Source of the DNA: Terriglobia bacterium
GTDB taxonomy: Bacteria; Acidobacteriota; Terriglobia; Acidiferrales; UBA7541
DNA length: 64,000 nucleotides
Assembly: GCA_963695545.1 (NCBI GenBank)
Contig: OY968796.1
Coordinates: 1,408,001 to 1,472,000 of the forward strand
Reading direction: 5' to 3'
Shown: piece after piece, positions 3,268 to 9,759 of the stretch
Position numbering within the stretch: the first letter of the stretch is position 1
Layout: every line of letters begins with the position of its first letter
The notes under the pieces: model-generated
Databases searched by the model: none
What the model was told of the DNA's origin: nothing
What the model saw: only the letters and a program-made list of their open reading frames with translations
Position numbers and translations under genes: made by a program

Positions 3268-6117
<2,850 letters not shown>

Positions 6118-6215
6118 GGGCCGCAACTGGCCGCGATCGCGGAAACATCCGCAACGGAGATCGGCGTGCGCCGGGGGCGTAGCGCGCGCCGCATTCCAAA
6201 AAGTTCCTGATAGTC

Positions 6216-6701
6216 ATGACCGCGCCGGCGATCGAACCCGTGCTTCGCGTCGGGCAATTAATTCCTCCGCTCGCCGCGCGCGCCCCGGATGGCACGCCGG
6301 TCCAGGCCTGGGACTTCCGGCAAAAACGAAATCTCGCCATCGTGTTTCTGCATTCAGAGTGCGTCACCTGCGCGGGGTTCCTCGAGCGCCTCGCGCGTCG
6401 CGCCGCGGATTTTCCTGAGCGCGATGCAGCCGTCCTGGTGGTCTTGTCGCACTTGCCTCTGCCGGGCAGCTCTCTCCCCGCGCCTCTCGTGCTCACCGCC
6501 GATCCCACCGGCAATTCCAGTGTCCATTATTTTGGGAAGAAGGCGGCAAACGCGGGCGGCCCTGGCCCGGTCGGAGTGTTCCTAGCCGACCGCTACGGCC
6601 AGCTTTCGATGCAGTGGGTAGGCGGCGAGGCGAGCCAACTGCCCAGCGCCGAAGAGATCCTCGGGGGTCTTCTAGAAACGCAGCATGCCGGAGAAGGATG
6701 A
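6216..6701 (+). CDS. Redoxin/AhpC-TSA-like thioredoxin-fold protein
   Basis: LRVGQLIPPL...WDFRQKRNLAIVFLH followed by CVTC; GVFLADRYG motif. Confidence 0.65.
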   Translation: MTAPAIEPVLRVGQLIPPLAARAPDGTPVQAWDFRQKRNLAIVFLHSECVTCAGFLERLARRAADFPERDAAVLVVLSHLPLPGSSLPAPLVLTADPTGNSSVHYFGKKAANAGGPGPVGVFLADRYGQLSMQWVGGEASQLPSAEEILGGLLETQHAGEG

Positions 6702-6750
6702 CGTCGTTCGCGACATCCGAGACGCTCGGGGTGTCGGCTGGAAGCGCTTA

Positions 6751-6787
6751 GAAAAGGAAAAGGGGCCCCACCCCGGGCCCCTCTTTC
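6751..6787 (-). terminator. Intrinsic terminator (U-rich tail on the minus strand; possibly bidirectional)
   Basis: Stem AGGGGCCC 6761-6768 / GGGCCCCT 6775-6782; the minus strand continues TTTCCTTTTC. Confidence 0.75.
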
Positions 6788-6871
6788 TTACTTGCACTCA
6801 CCCCGTCCCGCCGTAGCGGGACATTAACCACCACCCCTACAGCCACCCCGGGAAAAAAACCGAACTCTTGC
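6751..6871 (-). ncRNA. Candidate sigma54-dependent small RNA of about 120 nt with four GGGGUG motifs
   Basis: Lies between a sigma54 promoter and a terminator; C(UACG)G hairpin at 6805-6822 on the minus strand; CACCCC on the plus strand at 6769, 6799, 6832 and 6844. Confidence 0.65.
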
Positions 6872-6881
6872 CCATTACTAG

Positions 6882-6897
6882 TGCAAGTGCCATGCCA
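6882..6897 (-). promoter_or_regulatory. sigma54 (RpoN) -24/-12 promoter
   Basis: Minus strand reads TGGCATGGCACTTGCA versus consensus TGGCACG-N4-TTGCW, with exact GG/GC spacing. Confidence 0.75.
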
Positions 6898-7033
6898 GCC
6901 GCAGGTCGCGTTCGAAATACCTCGTAACTCATTTTATTCTAGTAGGTTAGCCACATAGCGGCGCCGGCGTGTGCTACCGCCGGCGCGAATAGCCCTATGC
7001 TTTCTCACAAACCAGAAGCCCGCGCCTACAAAC

Positions 7034-7052
7034 TTTGGGAGAATTCTCAAAA
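7034..7052. promoter_or_regulatory. Palindrome, candidate upstream activator site for a sigma54 enhancer-binding protein
   Basis: TTTGGGAGAATTCTCAAAA contains the perfect 10-bp palindrome GAGAATTCTC, about 170 bp upstream of the predicted +1. Confidence 0.4.
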
Positions 7053-7076
7053 TGGGCTCCCCCGGGACAACTTCGC

Positions 7077-8417
7077 CTACGCCCCGATCGCCGAATGGAT
7101 CGCCGCCGCCAGCGCCTTGGCCCACCGCGCGACGTCCTTTTCGCGCTCGGCTTCCACCATTACCCGCACTTTCGGCTCAGTGCCCGAATACCGCACCACC
7201 ACGCGGCCTGCGTCTCCCAGCGCCCGCGTGGCCTCGGCAAATACGCGCGCGAACGCCGGCAGCGAATCGAGCGGCGGTTTCGAGATCACCTTCACGTTAA
7301 CGATGGTCTGAGGAAAAATCTTGAGCCCGCGCATCAGATCGTCGAGCGGCCCGCGCAGCGAGACAAGGCAAGCCATCTTGAGCGCGGTCAGCAACCCGTC
7401 GCCGGTTGTAGCATCGTCGAGGAAGATCACGTGACCCGATTGCTCGCCGCCCAAATTGCATCCGCCGCGCAGCATTTCTTCCAGAACGTAGCGGTCGCCG
7501 ACCGGCACGCGGGCGAGCTTTAGGCCGTCTGCCGCCAGAGCGCGCTCCAGGCCCAGATTCGCCATGATCGTTCCCACTACGCGCGCGCATTTCAGCTGCC
7601 CGGCGGATTTCAGATAGCGCGCCGCGGCCAGCAGCACGCCGTCTCCATCGACGACGCGTCCGGTCGAGCTCACGAACACGGCGCGGTCGGCGTCGCCGTC
7701 AAAGGCCGCGCCCAGCGCGGCGCCCGTTTCCAGCACGGCCTTGCGCAACGCATTCGGATGCAGCGAGCCGCAATCCGCATTGATGTTGCGCCCATTCGGC
7801 TTGTCGTGGATCGCGGTCACCTCGGCTCCGAGGGAGCGGAATAATTCCGGACCAAGCGTCGATGCTGCGCCATTCGCGCAGTCGAGCGCGATTTTCATTC
7901 CCTCGAGATTCGCGCCGGGAATTGCGCGCGATCGCAAAAAATCCAGATACTCGCGCCCCAACGACGGTTCCGAATGCATTTCCGCGCGTTGCGCGGTTCG
8001 CGGCCCGATCGCGCTCAGAATCTCCTGCCCGAGGCGTGCTTCCACTTCGTCGGGGAATTTCATTCCCGTCGCGGCGATTAGTTTCACGCCGTTGTCGTGA
8101 TAGGGATTGTGCGAAGCGGAGATCACCACTCCTGCGGAAAATCCCTTGGCGCGAACCAGGTGCGCGACGCCGGGTGTGGTCAGCACGCCGGCCGAAGTGG
8201 CGGCGATGCCATCTTCGGCGAGGCCCGCGGCGATTTCTTGCGCGATGTGCGGGCCCGATTCGCGCGTGTCCATGCCCACGAGCACGCGCGGCTTCGTTTC
8301 GCGCTGCAGCAGAAAATGGCCCAGCGCCCGCCCGACGCGATACAGCGTGTCGTCATCGAGCGGGGGAGTGCCGGGTACGCCGCGAATTCCATCGGTTCCG
8401 AAAAGTTCTTTTGGCAT
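7077..8417 (-). CDS. glmM: Phosphoglucosamine mutase
   Basis: LFGTDGIRG, VISASHNP, FDGDADR, GGEQSGH, RYSGTEP. Confidence 0.96.
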   Translation of the reverse strand: MPKELFGTDGIRGVPGTPPLDDDTLYRVGRALGHFLLQRETKPRVLVGMDTRESGPHIAQEIAAGLAEDGIAATSAGVLTTPGVAHLVRAKGFSAGVVISASHNPYHDNGVKLIAATGMKFPDEVEARLGQEILSAIGPRTAQRAEMHSEPSLGREYLDFLRSRAIPGANLEGMKIALDCANGAASTLGPELFRSLGAEVTAIHDKPNGRNINADCGSLHPNALRKAVLETGAALGAAFDGDADRAVFVSSTGRVVDGDGVLLAAARYLKSAGQLKCARVVGTIMANLGLERALAADGLKLARVPVGDRYVLEEMLRGGCNLGGEQSGHVIFLDDATTGDGLLTALKMACLVSLRGPLDDLMRGLKIFPQTIVNVKVISKPPLDSLPAFARVFAEATRALGDAGRVVVRYSGTEPKVRVMVEAEREKDVARWAKALAAAIHSAIGA

Positions 8418-8508
8418 TGCGCCGGTCCGCGCGGAGCACGCTGCTTCAAAAGGATGGACGGCCCATTCGGGTCATGAGGCTCAGTCGGCGAAGTGTACCA
8501 CGGCGCGA

Positions 8509-8919
8509 CTAATCGCCATGCGCCGGCGGCGGAGCGCGTCGCGGCGAGATCACAATTTGAAAGTCCGACGGCGAGATACGCGCCACCGTTGCCCCGAATG
8601 GAACCTCCACCATTTGCGGATCGAGGTGTACGCCGAGGTCACCGGGCTTCGCGTTGCTCAGATCCACGCTCACGCTCAAGTCGCTGGTCGTCAAGCGCCG
8701 GACTAAAGCCGAGCGGCCGCGCACGCGCACGTGAATCGTCGTGGGAACGTCGCTCGAGATTTCAAGCGTCGGCGGAATGTTTACGAATTCGAGCGGCAGC
8801 GCAAACCCCACCTCGGAGATGGGCTCGTCCGTGTACGTGGTCCACAGCACGCAGGAAATCGCCAGGGCCGCGAGTTTCAGCCACCAGTTGGGGAAGATGT
8901 ATGTGCGCAGCCAGCGCAT
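8509..8919 (-). CDS. cdaR: CdaR/YbbR-domain regulator of diadenylate cyclase (single YbbR domain)
   Basis: N-terminal TM segment NWWLKLAALAISCVLW, one YbbR-like beta domain, located between cdaA and glmM. Confidence 0.8.
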   Translation of the reverse strand: MRWLRTYIFPNWWLKLAALAISCVLWTTYTDEPISEVGFALPLEFVNIPPTLEISSDVPTTIHVRVRGRSALVRRLTTSDLSVSVDLSNAKPGDLGVHLDPQMVEVPFGATVARISPSDFQIVISPRRAPPPAHGD

Positions 8920-8922
8920 AAT

Positions 8923-9759
8923 TTATTTCCTCAGCGCCGCCGTCGGCGCGCCCGCTCCTGCCAGCGTCTGTCTGCGGCGGCCCGTCAGCGAAATCAAACG
9001 CTCCTGCAGTTGATCGGCAGTCACATCGAGTTCGATCCCCCCGCCCGTGGCTATGGAAATCGCGCCGGTCTCTTCCGAGACCACCACGGCAATGGCATCG
9101 CTTTCCTCCGTGATGCCGATCGCGGCGCGGTGGCGCGTGCCGAGCTGATTTGAGAGAGCCGGGTTCAGCGAGAGCGGCAGAAAGCACGCCGCGGCACAAA
9201 TGCGGTCACGCTGCAGGATCACCGCGCCGTCGTGCATCGGCGAGCCGGGACGAAAGATCGCAATCAGCAGGTCGTAGCTCAGATTGGCGTCGAGCGCGAT
9301 TCCGCTTTCGATGTACGTGCTCAGGCTGACGTCTCGTTCGATCACCACCAGCGCGCCGATTCGATTCTGCGAGAAATGGCCCGCAGCGAGAACCAGATCG
9401 TCGTACGGCGATCCGGTGCGCTGCCCCAGTAAGTGGCCGAACGAGAACTGGCGGCCGAATCGTGCCAGCGCCCTGCGAATTTCCGGCTGGAATAATACGA
9501 TCATGGCGATCGCAAAATACGGGAGCAGCGTCGTCAGCAGCCATTCCACCATGCCCAGACGCGCCCAGCGCGCGCCTTCATCGAGCAGGAACAGCAAAAG
9601 CAACGCCACCGCCATTTGCAGACCGCGCGTGCCGCGCAACAATTTCAGCAGGTAGTAGATCAAAACCGCAATGATCAAAATGTCCAGCGCCGAGCGCACA
9701 TTCAAGCGCCCGAGCGGCAGGCTAGGAAGGAGTGCGGCGAGCCCACTCATGGGAGTCAC
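8923..9759 (-). CDS. cdaA: Membrane-bound diadenylate cyclase
   Basis: Three N-terminal TM segments, FQPEIRRAL, catalytic HDGA and GTRHRAA, VVSEETG; the start may instead be ATG 9750. Confidence 0.93.
   Translation of the reverse strand: MTPMSGLAALLPSLPLGRLNVRSALDILIIAVLIYYLLKLLRGTRGLQMAVALLLLFLLDEGARWARLGMVEWLLTTLLPYFAIAMIVLFQPEIRRALARFGRQFSFGHLLGQRTGSPYDDLVLAAGHFSQNRIGALVVIERDVSLSTYIESGIALDANLSYDLLIAIFRPGSPMHDGAVILQRDRICAAACFLPLSLNPALSNQLGTRHRAAIGITEESDAIAVVVSEETGAISIATGGGIELDVTADQLQERLISLTGRRRQTLAGAGAPTAALRK

What the first reader, a model, noticed from the sequence alone, without database searches (positions are those of the whole stretch)
6751..7052. Unannotated sigma54-driven small RNA with four GGGGUG motifs downstream of cdaA-cdaR-glmM
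Seen, all on the minus strand and in functional order: a palindrome at 7034-7052 (about -170); an AT-rich dyad TAACTCATTTTATTCTAGTAGGTTA at 6925-6949; a -24/-12 promoter TGGCATGGCACTTGCA at 6897-6882; a predicted +1 near 6871; then about 120 nt with no credible ORF. That stretch holds GGGGUG four times (6849-6844, 6837-6832, 6804-6799, 6774-6769), a 7-bp stem capped by a C(UACG)G tetraloop (6822-6805), and a terminator whose loop is exactly GGGGUG, followed by a U-rich tail. The UNCG loop and the longer U-tail agree with the promoter on strand. Known: enhancer, IHF site and -24/-12 box is the standard sigma54 layout; sigma54 sRNAs include CrcZ, GlmY and Qrr; sponge RNAs such as CsrB and CrcZ display repeated single-stranded motifs. 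Inference: a new sponge or multi-seed sRNA. GGGGUG could titrate an RNA-binding protein, pair with C-rich targets, mimic a Shine-Dalgarno sequence, or form a G-quadruplex from the four G4 runs.
Basis: partly seen in the sequence, partly recalled or inferred. Interest (0 to 1): 0.88.

Follow-up and report, generated by a model that had tools for sequence, protein, structure and literature searches.

The report
Sigma-54 small RNA beside glmM
A previously undescribed small regulatory RNA gene, apparently switched on through the sigma-54 system, sits just after the glmM gene in one family of uncultured soil Acidobacteria; what it regulates is still unknown.

Summary
This is the only place in the 4.16-Mb genome with four GGGGTG in 120 nt on one strand (expected 8.5e-5).

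It is a single-copy small-RNA gene of about 115 nt on the minus strand. It is absent from Rfam.

- **Distribution:** a covariance model built without the promoter finds it in 118 of 134 genomes of the window's own family (records are named Acidobacteriota, Terriglobia or Ca. Acidoferrum). It finds nothing credible in 131 genomes of other families of the class.
- **Promoter:** 20 of 20 model-found copies from different genomes carry a GG-N10-GC sigma-54 element at the same distance. Two conserved upstream boxes lie 30-34 bp apart.
- **Structure:** 18 of 26 base pairs show compensatory changes.
- **Location:** the gene follows glmM in 48 of 63 loci and usually supplies the first terminator after it.

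The sponge or multi-seed reading fails. Only the first motif is conserved, as the core CCCGGGG. The third is its pairing partner. The second and fourth are lineage-specific.

Target, activator and expression remain unknown.

The parts
7025..7041 (-). Upstream box 1 (CTCCCAAAGTTTGTAGG), about -162 from the predicted start. Candidate enhancer-binding-protein site.
   Evidence: It is conserved at a fixed distance from the promoter across the family. A loose regular expression finds it in 48 of 75 upstream regions. The pairing of box 1 with box 2 is unique in the own genome.
6994..7011 (-). Upstream box 2 (TTTGTGAGAAAGCATAGG), about -131. The second candidate activator site.
   Evidence: A box-2-like sequence is present in 68 of 75 upstream regions. 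The ends of the two boxes lie 30-34 bp apart in 49 of 50 cases, about three helical turns.
6925..6950 (-). Box 3: a conserved CTAAC (6950-6946) followed by an AT-rich stretch, lying between the enhancer boxes and the promoter.
   Evidence: Most relatives show CTAACyC...TTTCAA at this position. It fits the E. coli IHF consensus no better than shuffled sequence (best 1 mismatch in 9 of 68 regions, against 8.6% of shuffles at 0 or 1 mismatch).
6882..6897 (-). Sigma-54 type -24/-12 promoter, TGGCATGGCACTTGCA.
   Evidence: Read. A GG-N10-GC element lies at the same distance in 12 of 12 synteny-found copies. The same holds in 20 of 20 copies found by a model that holds no promoter columns. rpoN is present in the genome.
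6752..6872 (-). The small RNA itself, from the predicted start near 6871 to the end of the U-tail. About 115-120 nt.
   Evidence: Model R2 matches 6872-6756 at 38.8 bits, with genome-wide E = 4.6e-7. The start is inferred from the promoter geometry and has not been measured.
6843..6854 (-). Conserved element TTCCCGGGGTGG (invariant core CCCGGGG). UCCCG(G) forms the 5' strand of helix P1 and GGUGG sits in an internal loop.
   Evidence: It is unique in the genome. It is identical in 12 of 12 synteny-found copies. Variants among 20 model-found copies leave only CCCGGGG unchanged. Pairing is shown.
6823..6842 (-). Lineage-specific insertion that carries the second GGGGTG (6837-6832).
   Evidence: It is present in G000 and G003. 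It is absent from G004 and from the other relatives aligned.
6805..6822 (-). Helix P2: GTCCCGC-TACG-GCGGGAC.
   Evidence: Its position is conserved while the sequence varies. All 7 pairs of the two inner helices show compensatory changes.
6799..6804 (-). G-run (the third GGGGTG). It is the 3' strand of helix P1 and pairs with the CCC of the conserved element.
   Evidence: The pair table shows CG in 33, 33 and 31 rows, flanked by U-G/U-A and G-U/G-C pairs. The probability of being unpaired is 0.03-0.11 for the four G.
6752..6785 (-). Intrinsic terminator: stem 6785-6758, loop GGGGTG 6774-6769, then a U-rich tail. It can also terminate the convergent + strand ORF.
   Evidence: It is predicted on both strands. 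Six of its 8 modelled pairs covary. It is the only terminator-like site between the glmM stop codon and the convergent ORF.
7077..8417 (-). glmM (phosphoglucosamine mutase), the last gene of cdaA-cdaR-glmM. It is the conserved upstream neighbour.
   Evidence: All four PGM/PMM domains are found. glmM lies on the same strand within 2 kb upstream in 48 of 63 family loci and in 0 of 17 chance hits.

Best explanation
**What it is.** A single-copy gene for a structured small RNA of about 90-120 nt, confined to one family of Acidobacteriota. Public records of that family are named Terriglobia, Ca. Acidoferrum or Acidoferrales.

**Transcription (inferred).**
- It starts at a sigma-54 (-24/-12) promoter.
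- A so far unidentified enhancer-binding protein is proposed to activate that promoter. Its likely sites are two conserved boxes ending in (T)GTAG. They lie about 160 and 130 bp upstream and about three helical turns apart. A third conserved box lies between them and the promoter.
- Transcription ends at a strong intrinsic terminator.
- In most genomes this is also the first terminator after cdaA-cdaR-glmM. The RNA therefore has the layout of a 3'-end small RNA with its own promoter. The same sequence probably also forms the 3' end of the operon transcript.

**Fold (shown by covariation).**
- A short 5' tail.
- A long bulged hairpin made of helices P1 and P2.
- An A-rich linker.
- The terminator.

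**Functional site (inferred).** The 5' strand of P1 holds CCCGGGG, which never varies, while its partner strand does vary. This points to a sequence-specific role beyond pairing.

**Mechanism (inferred).** The most likely mechanism is a trans-acting regulatory RNA that uses this element, with GGUGG displayed in an internal loop. It could pair with C-rich RNA targets or bind a protein. Base pairing is somewhat more likely. Its output would be tied to amino-sugar, cell-envelope or c-di-AMP physiology by its fixed place after glmM.
For: **Conservation by synteny, with no motif demanded.** Twelve of 16 same-family genomes carry promoter, motif, hairpin and terminator within 1.5 kb after glmM. A thirteenth carries them further downstream.

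**Distribution of model R2, which holds no promoter columns.**
- It matches 118 of 134 genomes of the family, with one strong match per genome.
- In other families of the class it gives 4 weak hits in 131 genomes. All four are terminator-like hairpins only.

**Promoter.**
- 20 of 20 model-found copies from different genomes have GG-N10-GC, with TGG 15-27 nt before the model start.
- rpoN is present. So are about 16 enhancer-binding proteins.
- No sigma-70-like promoter is predicted in 6600-7200.

**Upstream boxes.** They sit at a fixed distance and spacing and are unique in the genome.

**Structure.**
- 94.8% of cells pair, against 78.1% in shuffles (0 of 500 shuffles reach this).
- 18 of 26 pairs show changes on both sides.
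- The covariation score is 0.449, against at most 0.126 when the partners are slid.

**Strand.** P1 holds many G-U pairs. These would be A-C mismatches on the other strand.

**Not coding.** 32 of 73 copies have no ATG at all. The ATG at 6875 reads ATA in G004.

**Link to glmM.**
- glmM lies upstream in 48 of 63 loci.
- A terminator-like site lies between glmM and the promoter in only 6 of 36 close loci. The same scan finds the RNA's own terminator in 29 of 36.
Against: **No expression data.** No RNA run was listed for this organism. The transcript, its ends and its sigma-54 dependence are therefore all inferred.

**Weak points in the sequence evidence.**
- The promoter pattern alone occurs at the chance rate in this genome (8 hits).
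- The folding energy of the window's own copy is unremarkable (z = -1.35).
- The covariation counts come from an alignment fitted to the model's structure. That alignment also held 2 spurious opposite-strand rows among its 36.
- Of the 63 family loci, the pattern scan required the motif and promoter in advance. They are not independent evidence for either feature.

**No activator identified.**
- No enhancer-binding-protein gene lies nearby.
- A presence/absence comparison over 8 genomes gave no clean candidate.

**No target found.**

**Upstream boxes.** They match no known activator consensus that I tested.
Confidence: 0.8

Rival explanations
1. One reading: a sponge or multi-seed RNA that displays four single-stranded GGGGUG units, or folds them into a G-quadruplex, to titrate a protein or many targets.
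For: In the window's own copy the four motifs are far beyond chance. It is the only such cluster in the genome (expected 8.5e-5). G-rich GGGGU-like runs recur two to four times in most family members. A terminator loop with GGGGUG or GGGUG also appears in two distant copies, L054 and L055.
Against: - Motif 2 lies in an insertion found only in G000 and G003.
- Motif 4 reads GGTG in G003 and G004, and UUGCACC or other sequences elsewhere.
- Motif 3 is base-paired to the CCC of motif 1, in a helix whose flanking pairs covary.
- The predicted unpaired probability is below 0.2 for the G-runs of motifs 2 and 3.
- The hexamer GGGGUG is itself not invariant. The variants GGGGUA, GGGGUU, GGGGGU and GGGGGA occur.
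- G-runs locked in conserved C-G helices argue against a quadruplex.
Confidence: 0.06
2. A functional analogue of enterobacterial GlmY/GlmZ. In this reading a sigma-54 and two-component-controlled small RNA adjusts amino-sugar supply (glmS or the glmM operon), either by base pairing or by occupying the RapZ-like protein.
For: - It has a fixed position right after glmM.
- The layout is a sigma-54 promoter with activator sites more than 100 bp upstream, as described for glmY (passages of PMC4152352 read).
- The genome has glmS but no glmS ribozyme.
- A RapZ-like gene lies directly after rpoN.
Against: - No match to any Rfam family, GlmY and GlmZ included, even at E up to 10.
- The GlrR site TGTCN10GACA is found in 0 of 75 upstream regions.
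- There is one copy per genome, not a homologous pair.
- Crude duplex energy with the glmS 5' region is no better than for 19.5% of 400 random genomic windows.
- RapZ-like proteins are widespread (7 of 14 control genomes), so its presence says little.
Confidence: 0.1
3. Not an independent RNA. On this reading the conserved sequence is only the structured 3' untranslated end and terminator of the cdaA-cdaR-glmM transcript, and the promoter-like element is not used.
For: In most loci there is no terminator between glmM and this element (6 of 36 have one; for the window). The operon transcript should therefore include it. There are no expression data to show an internal start.
Against: - The -24/-12 element is kept at a fixed distance in 20 of 20 copies found without it.
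- Two further boxes are conserved 100-160 bp upstream at a fixed spacing. A 3' untranslated region gives no reason for this.
- The gene keeps the promoter and boxes in 15 of 63 loci that have no glmM within 2 kb. It also keeps them where other genes (DUF4349, ECF sigma/anti-sigma) and their own terminator intervene.
Confidence: 0.05
4. A sigma-54-dependent leader or attenuator that controls a downstream gene in cis, or a gene for a very small protein.
For: In some relatives a same-strand gene follows 0.5-0.8 kb downstream: a PilZ protein, seryl-tRNA synthetase or Ffh. About half of the copies contain an ATG-started frame of 10 codons or more (36 of 73).
Against: - The downstream genes differ between lineages. 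In the window the next gene is convergent.
- A strong terminator with a U-tail always ends the element.
- 32 of 73 copies have no ATG, and the frames are not conserved.
Confidence: 0.03

Closest known systems
GlmY / GlmZ of Enterobacteriaceae (sigma-54 and GlrK/GlrR-controlled small RNAs that regulate glmS)
   Same: Both are small RNAs transcribed from a sigma-54 promoter, with activator sites more than 100 bp upstream and a further element in between (PMC4152352, passages read). Both have a genetic link to amino-sugar metabolism. Both are dedicated: here the upstream site is unique in the genome.
   Different: - No sequence or structure similarity (no Rfam match).
- Different activator sites (0 of 75 with TGTCN10GACA).
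- No activator gene next to it.
- One copy instead of two homologues.
- No overlapping sigma-70-like promoter predicted.
- A different phylum.
- The target is unknown.
CrcZ/CrcY (Pseudomonas, CbrB and sigma-54) and CsrB/RsmZ-type sponge RNAs (recalled, not checked in a call)
   Same: CrcZ shares the sigma-54 and enhancer-binding-protein control. The window's own copy also looks like a sponge, with a short motif repeated.
   Different: Sponge RNAs keep many copies of the motif in single-stranded positions across species. Here one copy is conserved, half of it is base-paired, and the other copies are lineage-specific.
Qrr small RNAs (Vibrio, LuxO and sigma-54) and Pxr (Myxococcus) (recalled, not checked in a call)
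   Same: Each is a short trans-acting RNA whose synthesis depends on sigma-54 and one dedicated NtrC-type regulator, and which ends in an intrinsic terminator.
   Different: No Rfam family matched. There is a single copy per genome. The architecture differs: one long bulged hairpin carrying the conserved element.
3'-end small RNAs with their own promoter, such as MicL or DapZ of enterobacteria (recalled, not checked in a call)
   Same: The gene sits at the 3' end of an operon, has its own promoter after or within the last gene, and shares the operon's terminator.
   Different: The promoter here is of the sigma-54 type with a distant enhancer, which has to fit into the 190-440 bp after the glmM stop codon. 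Sharing of the terminator is inferred from sequence only.

Membership tests
Sigma-54-dependent promoter | GG and GC dinucleotides ten bases apart in a TGGCAC-N5-TTGCW-like element | tested here: met
   The window reads TGGCATGGCACTTGCA at 6897-6882. The element is kept in 12 of 12 synteny-found copies and in 20 of 20 model-found copies, 18 as TGGCA and 2 as TGGAA.
Sigma-54-dependent promoter | rpoN and enhancer-binding proteins encoded in the genome | tested here: met
   The Sigma54_DBD domain scores 190.3 bits at G000:C1:308430-308903. PF00158 gives 22 matches, 16 of them at 88 bits or more.
Sigma-54-dependent promoter | Upstream activator sites about 100-200 bp from the promoter | tested here: inconclusive
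   Two conserved boxes lie at about -162 and -131 with a 30-34 bp spacing. This fits the definition. However, they match no known consensus tested (GlrR 0 of 75, NtrC-like 0 of 75, NifA-like 2 of 75), and no binding protein has been identified.
Sigma-54-dependent promoter | Transcription start about 11-13 nt after the GC element, dependent on rpoN | not testable with these tools
   No RNA run was listed.
IHF-assisted enhancer looping | A WATCAANNNNTTR site between the enhancer and the promoter | tested here: not met
   The best match has 1 mismatch in 9 of 68 regions, 2 in 36 and 3 in 23. This is close to shuffled sequence. A different conserved box (CTAACyC...TTTCAA) occupies the position.
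GlmY/GlmZ RNA families (Rfam) | A match to the family covariance models | tested here: not met
   No Rfam match at the gathering threshold in the window. There is none at E up to 10 in 6600-7150 apart from 4 unrelated weak hits. None is found in six relatives' loci.
GlmY/GlmZ regulatory system | GlrR sites TGTCN10GACA upstream | tested here: not met
   Found in 0 of 75 upstream regions.
Sponge or decoy RNA (CsrB, RsmZ, CrcZ type) | Several copies of one short motif, conserved and single-stranded | tested here: not met
   One conserved copy only. The G-runs of motifs 2 and 3 are predicted to be paired, and motif 3 pairs with motif 1.
Structured non-coding RNA | Base pairs kept through compensatory changes | tested here: met
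   18 of 26 pairs change on both sides, and 0 of 500 shuffles reach the observed score. Slid controls fall to 0.126 or less against 0.449. The caveat is that the alignment was fitted to the model.
3'-end small RNA with own promoter | Own promoter downstream of the last coding sequence, and a terminator shared with the operon | tested here: inconclusive
   Sequence agrees. No other terminator is found in the window, and only 6 of 36 loci have a terminator-like site in between. Shared use of the terminator needs transcript mapping.

The most novel reading that the evidence does not exclude
This RNA is the output of a dedicated two-component and sigma-54 pathway. That pathway would feed back on cell-envelope precursor or c-di-AMP homeostasis in Acidobacteria. 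It would be an independently evolved counterpart of the GlmY/GlmZ circuit. It is built into the 3' end of the cdaA-cdaR-glmM operon, so that one sequence serves both as the operon's 3' end and as a separately induced regulator. It would act through the invariant CCCGGGG element on glmS, on the operon itself or on the RapZ-like protein.
Probability: 0.1. Interest if true: 0.8.

Novelty: new member of a known kind. Interest (0 to 1): 0.55.

Why it matters
Regulatory RNAs of Acidobacteria, a dominant but mostly uncultured soil phylum, appear to be little explored. Three full-text searches combining Acidobacteria (or glmM) with small RNA and sigma-54 or RpoN found no description of this RNA.

This finding gives a complete and widely conserved regulatory unit: enhancer boxes, a sigma-54 promoter, a structured RNA with one invariant element, and a terminator. 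It is found in 118 of 134 genomes of one family.

It can be used directly in several ways:
- as an Rfam-type family;
- as a marker for annotation;
- as an entry point to one sigma-54 regulon of these organisms.

Its fixed position after cdaA-cdaR-glmM suggests a link to envelope or c-di-AMP physiology that can be tested. The limits are that the function is unknown and that the hosts are known here only from metagenome-assembled genomes.

Tried and rejected
- **Expression.** No RNA holder was listed for window 5500-9500, so no reads were laid.
- **Earlier findings.** Nothing was found by sequence.
- **First alignment.** RNAalifold on a MAFFT alignment of all 73 copies gave a meaningless consensus, because the subfamilies were misaligned. 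I replaced it with model-based alignments.
- **Targets by exact complement.** The 12-mer complement with up to 1 mismatch is common and only about twice its reversed control in 41 genomes. No second conserved site stood out.
- **Complement sites in the own genome.** The 10-mer complement occurs 16 times outside the gene. Seven of these lie in a repeat that flanks IS200-like transposase genes. I take this as coincidence, and I did not check it in relatives.
- **Sm/Hfq-like gene as target.**
  - One site lies in the 5' leader of an Sm/Hfq-like gene.
  - The complement is not conserved. CCCCGGG occurs within 170 nt upstream in 1 of the 18 loci whose start I could place. Nine further loci had no start placed. 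Rejected.
- **glmS as target.** Crude duplex energy was -71.2 kcal/mol, against a background of -65.7 +/- 6.6. Of 400 random windows, 19.5% were as low or lower. This is uninformative. An earlier run of the same script timed out.
- **Activator by presence/absence.** I compared 4 genomes with the RNA and 4 without.
  - No protein is present in all of the first group and absent from all of the second.
  - The nearest candidate (locus L151) is present in 4 of 4 positives and missing from 2 of 4 negatives.
  - 17 of 131 loci gave no extractable protein. Inconclusive.
- **Hidden copies.** A looser pattern run over five model-negative genomes gave three hits, none homologous.
- **IHF and known activator consensus sites.** Not met.
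- **Small ORF.** Rejected.
Full report
**1. The observation**

- Promoter: TGGCATGGCACTTGCA at 6897-6882.
- GGGGTG: at 6849-6844, 6837-6832, 6804-6799 and 6774-6769.
- Hairpin: GTCCCGC-TACG-GCGGGAC at 6822-6805.
- Terminator: its loop is GGGGTG (stem 6785-6758), followed by a T-rich tail.

The cluster of motifs is not chance. GGGGTG occurs 941 times on both strands of the 4.16-Mb genome. This is the only 120-nt stretch with four on one strand, where 8.5e-5 are expected.

Two cautions apply.
- The strict promoter pattern occurs 8 times in the genome, about the chance number.
- The folding energy of this copy is unremarkable (z = -1.35; 20 of 200 shuffles fold as well).

**2. Context**

| Feature | Window position | Strand | Basis |
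|---|---|---|---|
| glmM | 7077-8417 | - | |
| YbbR-domain gene (cdaR) | 8509-8919 | - | |
| cdaA | 8923-9759 | - | |
| Convergent 161-aa ORF, no Pfam domain | 6216-6701 | + | |

- The scan of 6600-7200 predicts no sigma-70-like promoter. It predicts a single, bidirectional terminator.
- Rfam has nothing. There are 0 matches at the gathering threshold in the 64-kb window. There are four unrelated weak hits at E up to 10 in 6600-7150, and two unrelated weak hits in six relatives' loci.
- The genome encodes rpoN and about 16 enhancer-binding proteins.

**3. Relatives**

*BLAST.* It found the region only in two species of the same genus (3 of 61 genomes, counting G000). Aligning them showed what is and is not conserved.
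- The promoter is kept.
- TTCCCGGGGTGG is kept.
- The hairpin followed by GGGGTGA is kept.
- The terminator stem is kept.
- Two upstream boxes are kept.
- The second GGGGTG lies in an insertion absent from G004.
- The terminator loop reads GGTG in both relatives.
- The ATG at 6875 reads ATA in G004.

*Synteny.* I then looked downstream of glmM without demanding any motif.
- Twelve of the 16 genomes of the window's own family, G000 included, carry a TGGCA-N7-TGC element within 1.5 kb. About 45 nt later comes TTCCCGGGGTGG, then a hairpin of varying sequence, a G-run and a terminator.
- None of the 8 genomes from the two other families of the order does.
- One of the four apparent negatives (G013, a genome flagged as unpublished) has the gene about 1.2 kb further on, behind an intervening gene.

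*Pattern scan of one genome per species.* The pattern was promoter plus motif.
- Sixty-three of the 80 have the full architecture (58 by a script, 5 more by eye).
- Seventeen are chance hits without hairpin or terminator.
- Almost all of the 63 are named Acidobacteriota, Terriglobia, Ca. Acidoferrum or Acidoferrales.
- Because the scan demanded promoter and motif, these 63 cannot be used as evidence for either.
- glmM lies on the same strand within 2 kb upstream in 48 of the 63 and in 0 of the 17.
- Where there is a gap, DUF4349 or ECF sigma/anti-sigma genes intervene.

**4. Structure**

Single-sequence folds of the copies mostly show the same plan.
- A 5' tail.
- A long helix P1, whose 5' strand contains UUCCCGG and whose 3' strand is the G-run after the inner hairpin.
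- An internal loop that holds GGUGG.
- An inner hairpin, P2.
- A linker.
- The terminator.

I built two covariance models. Neither contains promoter columns.
- R1 came from 44 copies of the largest subfamily.
- R2 came from 31 copies of all subfamilies aligned by R1. One of those rows is from the unpublished G013.

The pair counts were made on a model-fitted alignment of 36 rows. Two of those rows were spurious opposite-strand terminator matches.
- 94.8% of cells pair, against 78.1 +/- 0.9% in shuffles (0 of 500 reach it).
- 18 of 26 pairs change on both sides.
- The covariation score is 0.449, against at most 0.126 when the partners are slid by 1-3 columns.
- All 7 pairs of the two inner helices covary, as do 6 of the 8 terminator pairs.

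The alignment leans towards the model's structure, so an independent test is still wanted. The many G-U pairs in P1 fit the minus strand only.

In P1 the CCC of the motif pairs with GGG in 33, 33 and 31 rows. The flanking partner bases vary (U-G/U-A, G-U/G-C). One strand is therefore frozen and the other is free.

In the window's own copy:
- The G-runs of motifs 2 and 3 are predicted to be paired.
- Motif 4 is the terminator loop.
- Of motif 1, only GGU is unpaired.
- The insertion also offers an alternative pairing with the P2 region. That fold is 2.7 kcal/mol more stable than the fold with the conserved P2.

**5. Distribution and the unbiased promoter test**

*Within the order.*
- R2 finds one strong match per genome in 118 of 134 genomes of the family.
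- The window's own copy scores 38.8 bits (E = 4.6e-7).
- Three weak matches fall in the other two families. I inspected two of them, and neither is homologous.

*Within the class.* Sixteen of 19 family genomes match. Four of 131 genomes of other families give weak hits. All four are only terminator-like hairpins.

*Genera without the gene.* Genera g6 (1 of 10), g28 (0 of 4), g24 and g2 mostly lack it. One g6 genome has a divergent copy with a longer leader. A looser pattern found no hidden copy in five negative genomes.

These counts include the unpublished genomes G013, G065, G097 and G114. No conclusion depends on them alone.

*Promoter test.* I fetched 20 model-found copies from 20 genomes.
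- All 20 have a GG-N10-GC element with TGG 15-27 nt before the model start. Eighteen read TGGCA-N7-(T/G/C)TGC and two read TGGAA.
- All show the upstream boxes.
- The same set shows the true invariant. Variants such as AACCCGGGGTGG, TGCCCGGGGTGA, TTCCCGGGGTAG and TTCCCGGGGGAA leave only CCCGGGG unchanged.

**6. The upstream region**

Across 75 upstream regions:
- Box 1 (consensus cTCCCAAAGAaTGTAG; window 7041-7025) and box 2 (CTGTGAGAttTTGTAG; window 7011-6994) sit at a fixed distance from the promoter.
- Their ends lie 30-34 bp apart in 49 of 50 scorable cases.
- A third box (CTAACyC...TTTCAA; window CTAAC at 6950-6946) lies between them and the promoter.
- The box pair is unique in the own genome.

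None of the known sites tested is present. GlrR-type sites occur in 0 of 75 regions, NtrC-like in 0 of 75, and NifA-like in 2 of 75. The E. coli IHF consensus fits no better than in shuffled sequence.

It overlaps the left part of box 1.

**7. Relation to the operon**

- In the window no terminator lies between the glmM stop codon (7077) and the RNA's terminator.
- In 36 loci where glmM ends 188-439 nt before the promoter, a terminator-like site lies in between in only 6. The same scan detects the RNA's own terminator in 29 of 36.
- The operon transcript should therefore usually end at the RNA's terminator. This is the layout of a 3'-end small RNA with its own promoter. It is an inference from sequence.

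**8. Function**

I could not find a target.
- The complement of the element is common and shows no second conserved site in 41 genomes.
- In G000, seven of its 16 other occurrences lie in a repeat that flanks IS200-like transposase genes.
- One occurrence lies in the leader of an Sm/Hfq-like gene. That match is not conserved: it is seen in 1 of 18 loci where the start could be placed.
- The glmS 5' region pairs no better than a fifth of random windows in a crude test.
- The genome has glmS without a glmS ribozyme. A RapZ-like gene lies next to rpoN. This keeps a GlmY/GlmZ-like role possible but unsupported.
- A small presence/absence comparison of enhancer-binding proteins gave no clean activator candidate.
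- No coding potential is conserved.

**9. Comparison with known systems**

- It works like the known sigma-54-dependent small RNAs. GlmY/GlmZ was compared using passages of PMC4152352 read. CrcZ, Qrr and Pxr are recalled from memory.
- It is placed like 3'-end small RNAs with their own promoter (MicL and DapZ, recalled).
- It is not a member of any Rfam family.
- It fails the defining feature of sponge RNAs.

**10. Literature**

- Full-text searches for Acidobacteria with small RNA or sRNA and sigma54 or RpoN gave one unrelated review and nothing else.
- A search on glmM, sRNA and sigma54 gave only the GlmY/GlmZ review.
- For Ca. Acidoferrum I saw only the search listing.

**11. Verdict**

- This is a real, conserved and so far undescribed small-RNA family with a well-defined sigma-54 control region.
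- It is a new member of a known kind.
- Expression, activator and target are open.

Noticed in passing
G000:C1:1475606-1476417, 1478626-1479438 and 1198761-1199599 (3.6 kb or more beyond the window's end; loci L235, L236): Units of about 810-840 nt encode an IS200-like Y1 transposase (PF01797). They are flanked by inverted 120-130-nt repeats made of two hairpins. This resembles REP-associated transposases. The repeats contain the exact 10-11-nt complement of the small RNA's conserved element.
   Followed up: partly
window 6216-6701 (+): A convergent 161-aa ORF with no Pfam domain ends 50 nt from the shared terminator. Homologues (35-52% identity by tblastn) lie convergent to the RNA gene in several relatives.
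   Followed up: partly
window 6961-6986 (-): A strong 9-bp G+C hairpin (GCGCCGGCG...CGCCGGCGC) with no U-tail lies between upstream box 2 and box 3. It is not conserved in the two closest relatives.
   Followed up: no
G000:C1:308430-309418 (loci L001, L355): A RapZ-like gene lies directly downstream of rpoN.
   Followed up: no
G000:C1:3864261-3864599 (loci L356, L357): A 113-aa Sm-like protein scores 25.2 bits against Pfam Hfq, below the cut-off of 27. It is conserved in 45 of 46 family genomes. It may be the family's Hfq equivalent.
   Followed up: partly
loci L046, L051, L084, L091, L099: Five records carry the full RNA gene, and three of them also an Acidoferrum-like glmM. They are labelled as other phyla (Eisenbacteria, Baltobacteraceae, Saccharimonadales, Verrucomicrobiia, Dormiibacterota). 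The bins may be mislabelled or mixed.
   Followed up: no
largest subfamily (alignment A4, for example L063 and L068): In the largest subfamily the P2 apical loop (AACCUCGAC, containing CCUC) and the terminator loop (UUGCACC) are nearly invariant. CACC in the terminator loop could pair with GGUG of the internal loop. Neither loop is conserved in the window's own lineage.
   Followed up: no
window 3268-6117 (+): A class II (B12-dependent) ribonucleotide reductase with a C-terminal TSCPD domain lies upstream of the convergent ORF.
   Followed up: no
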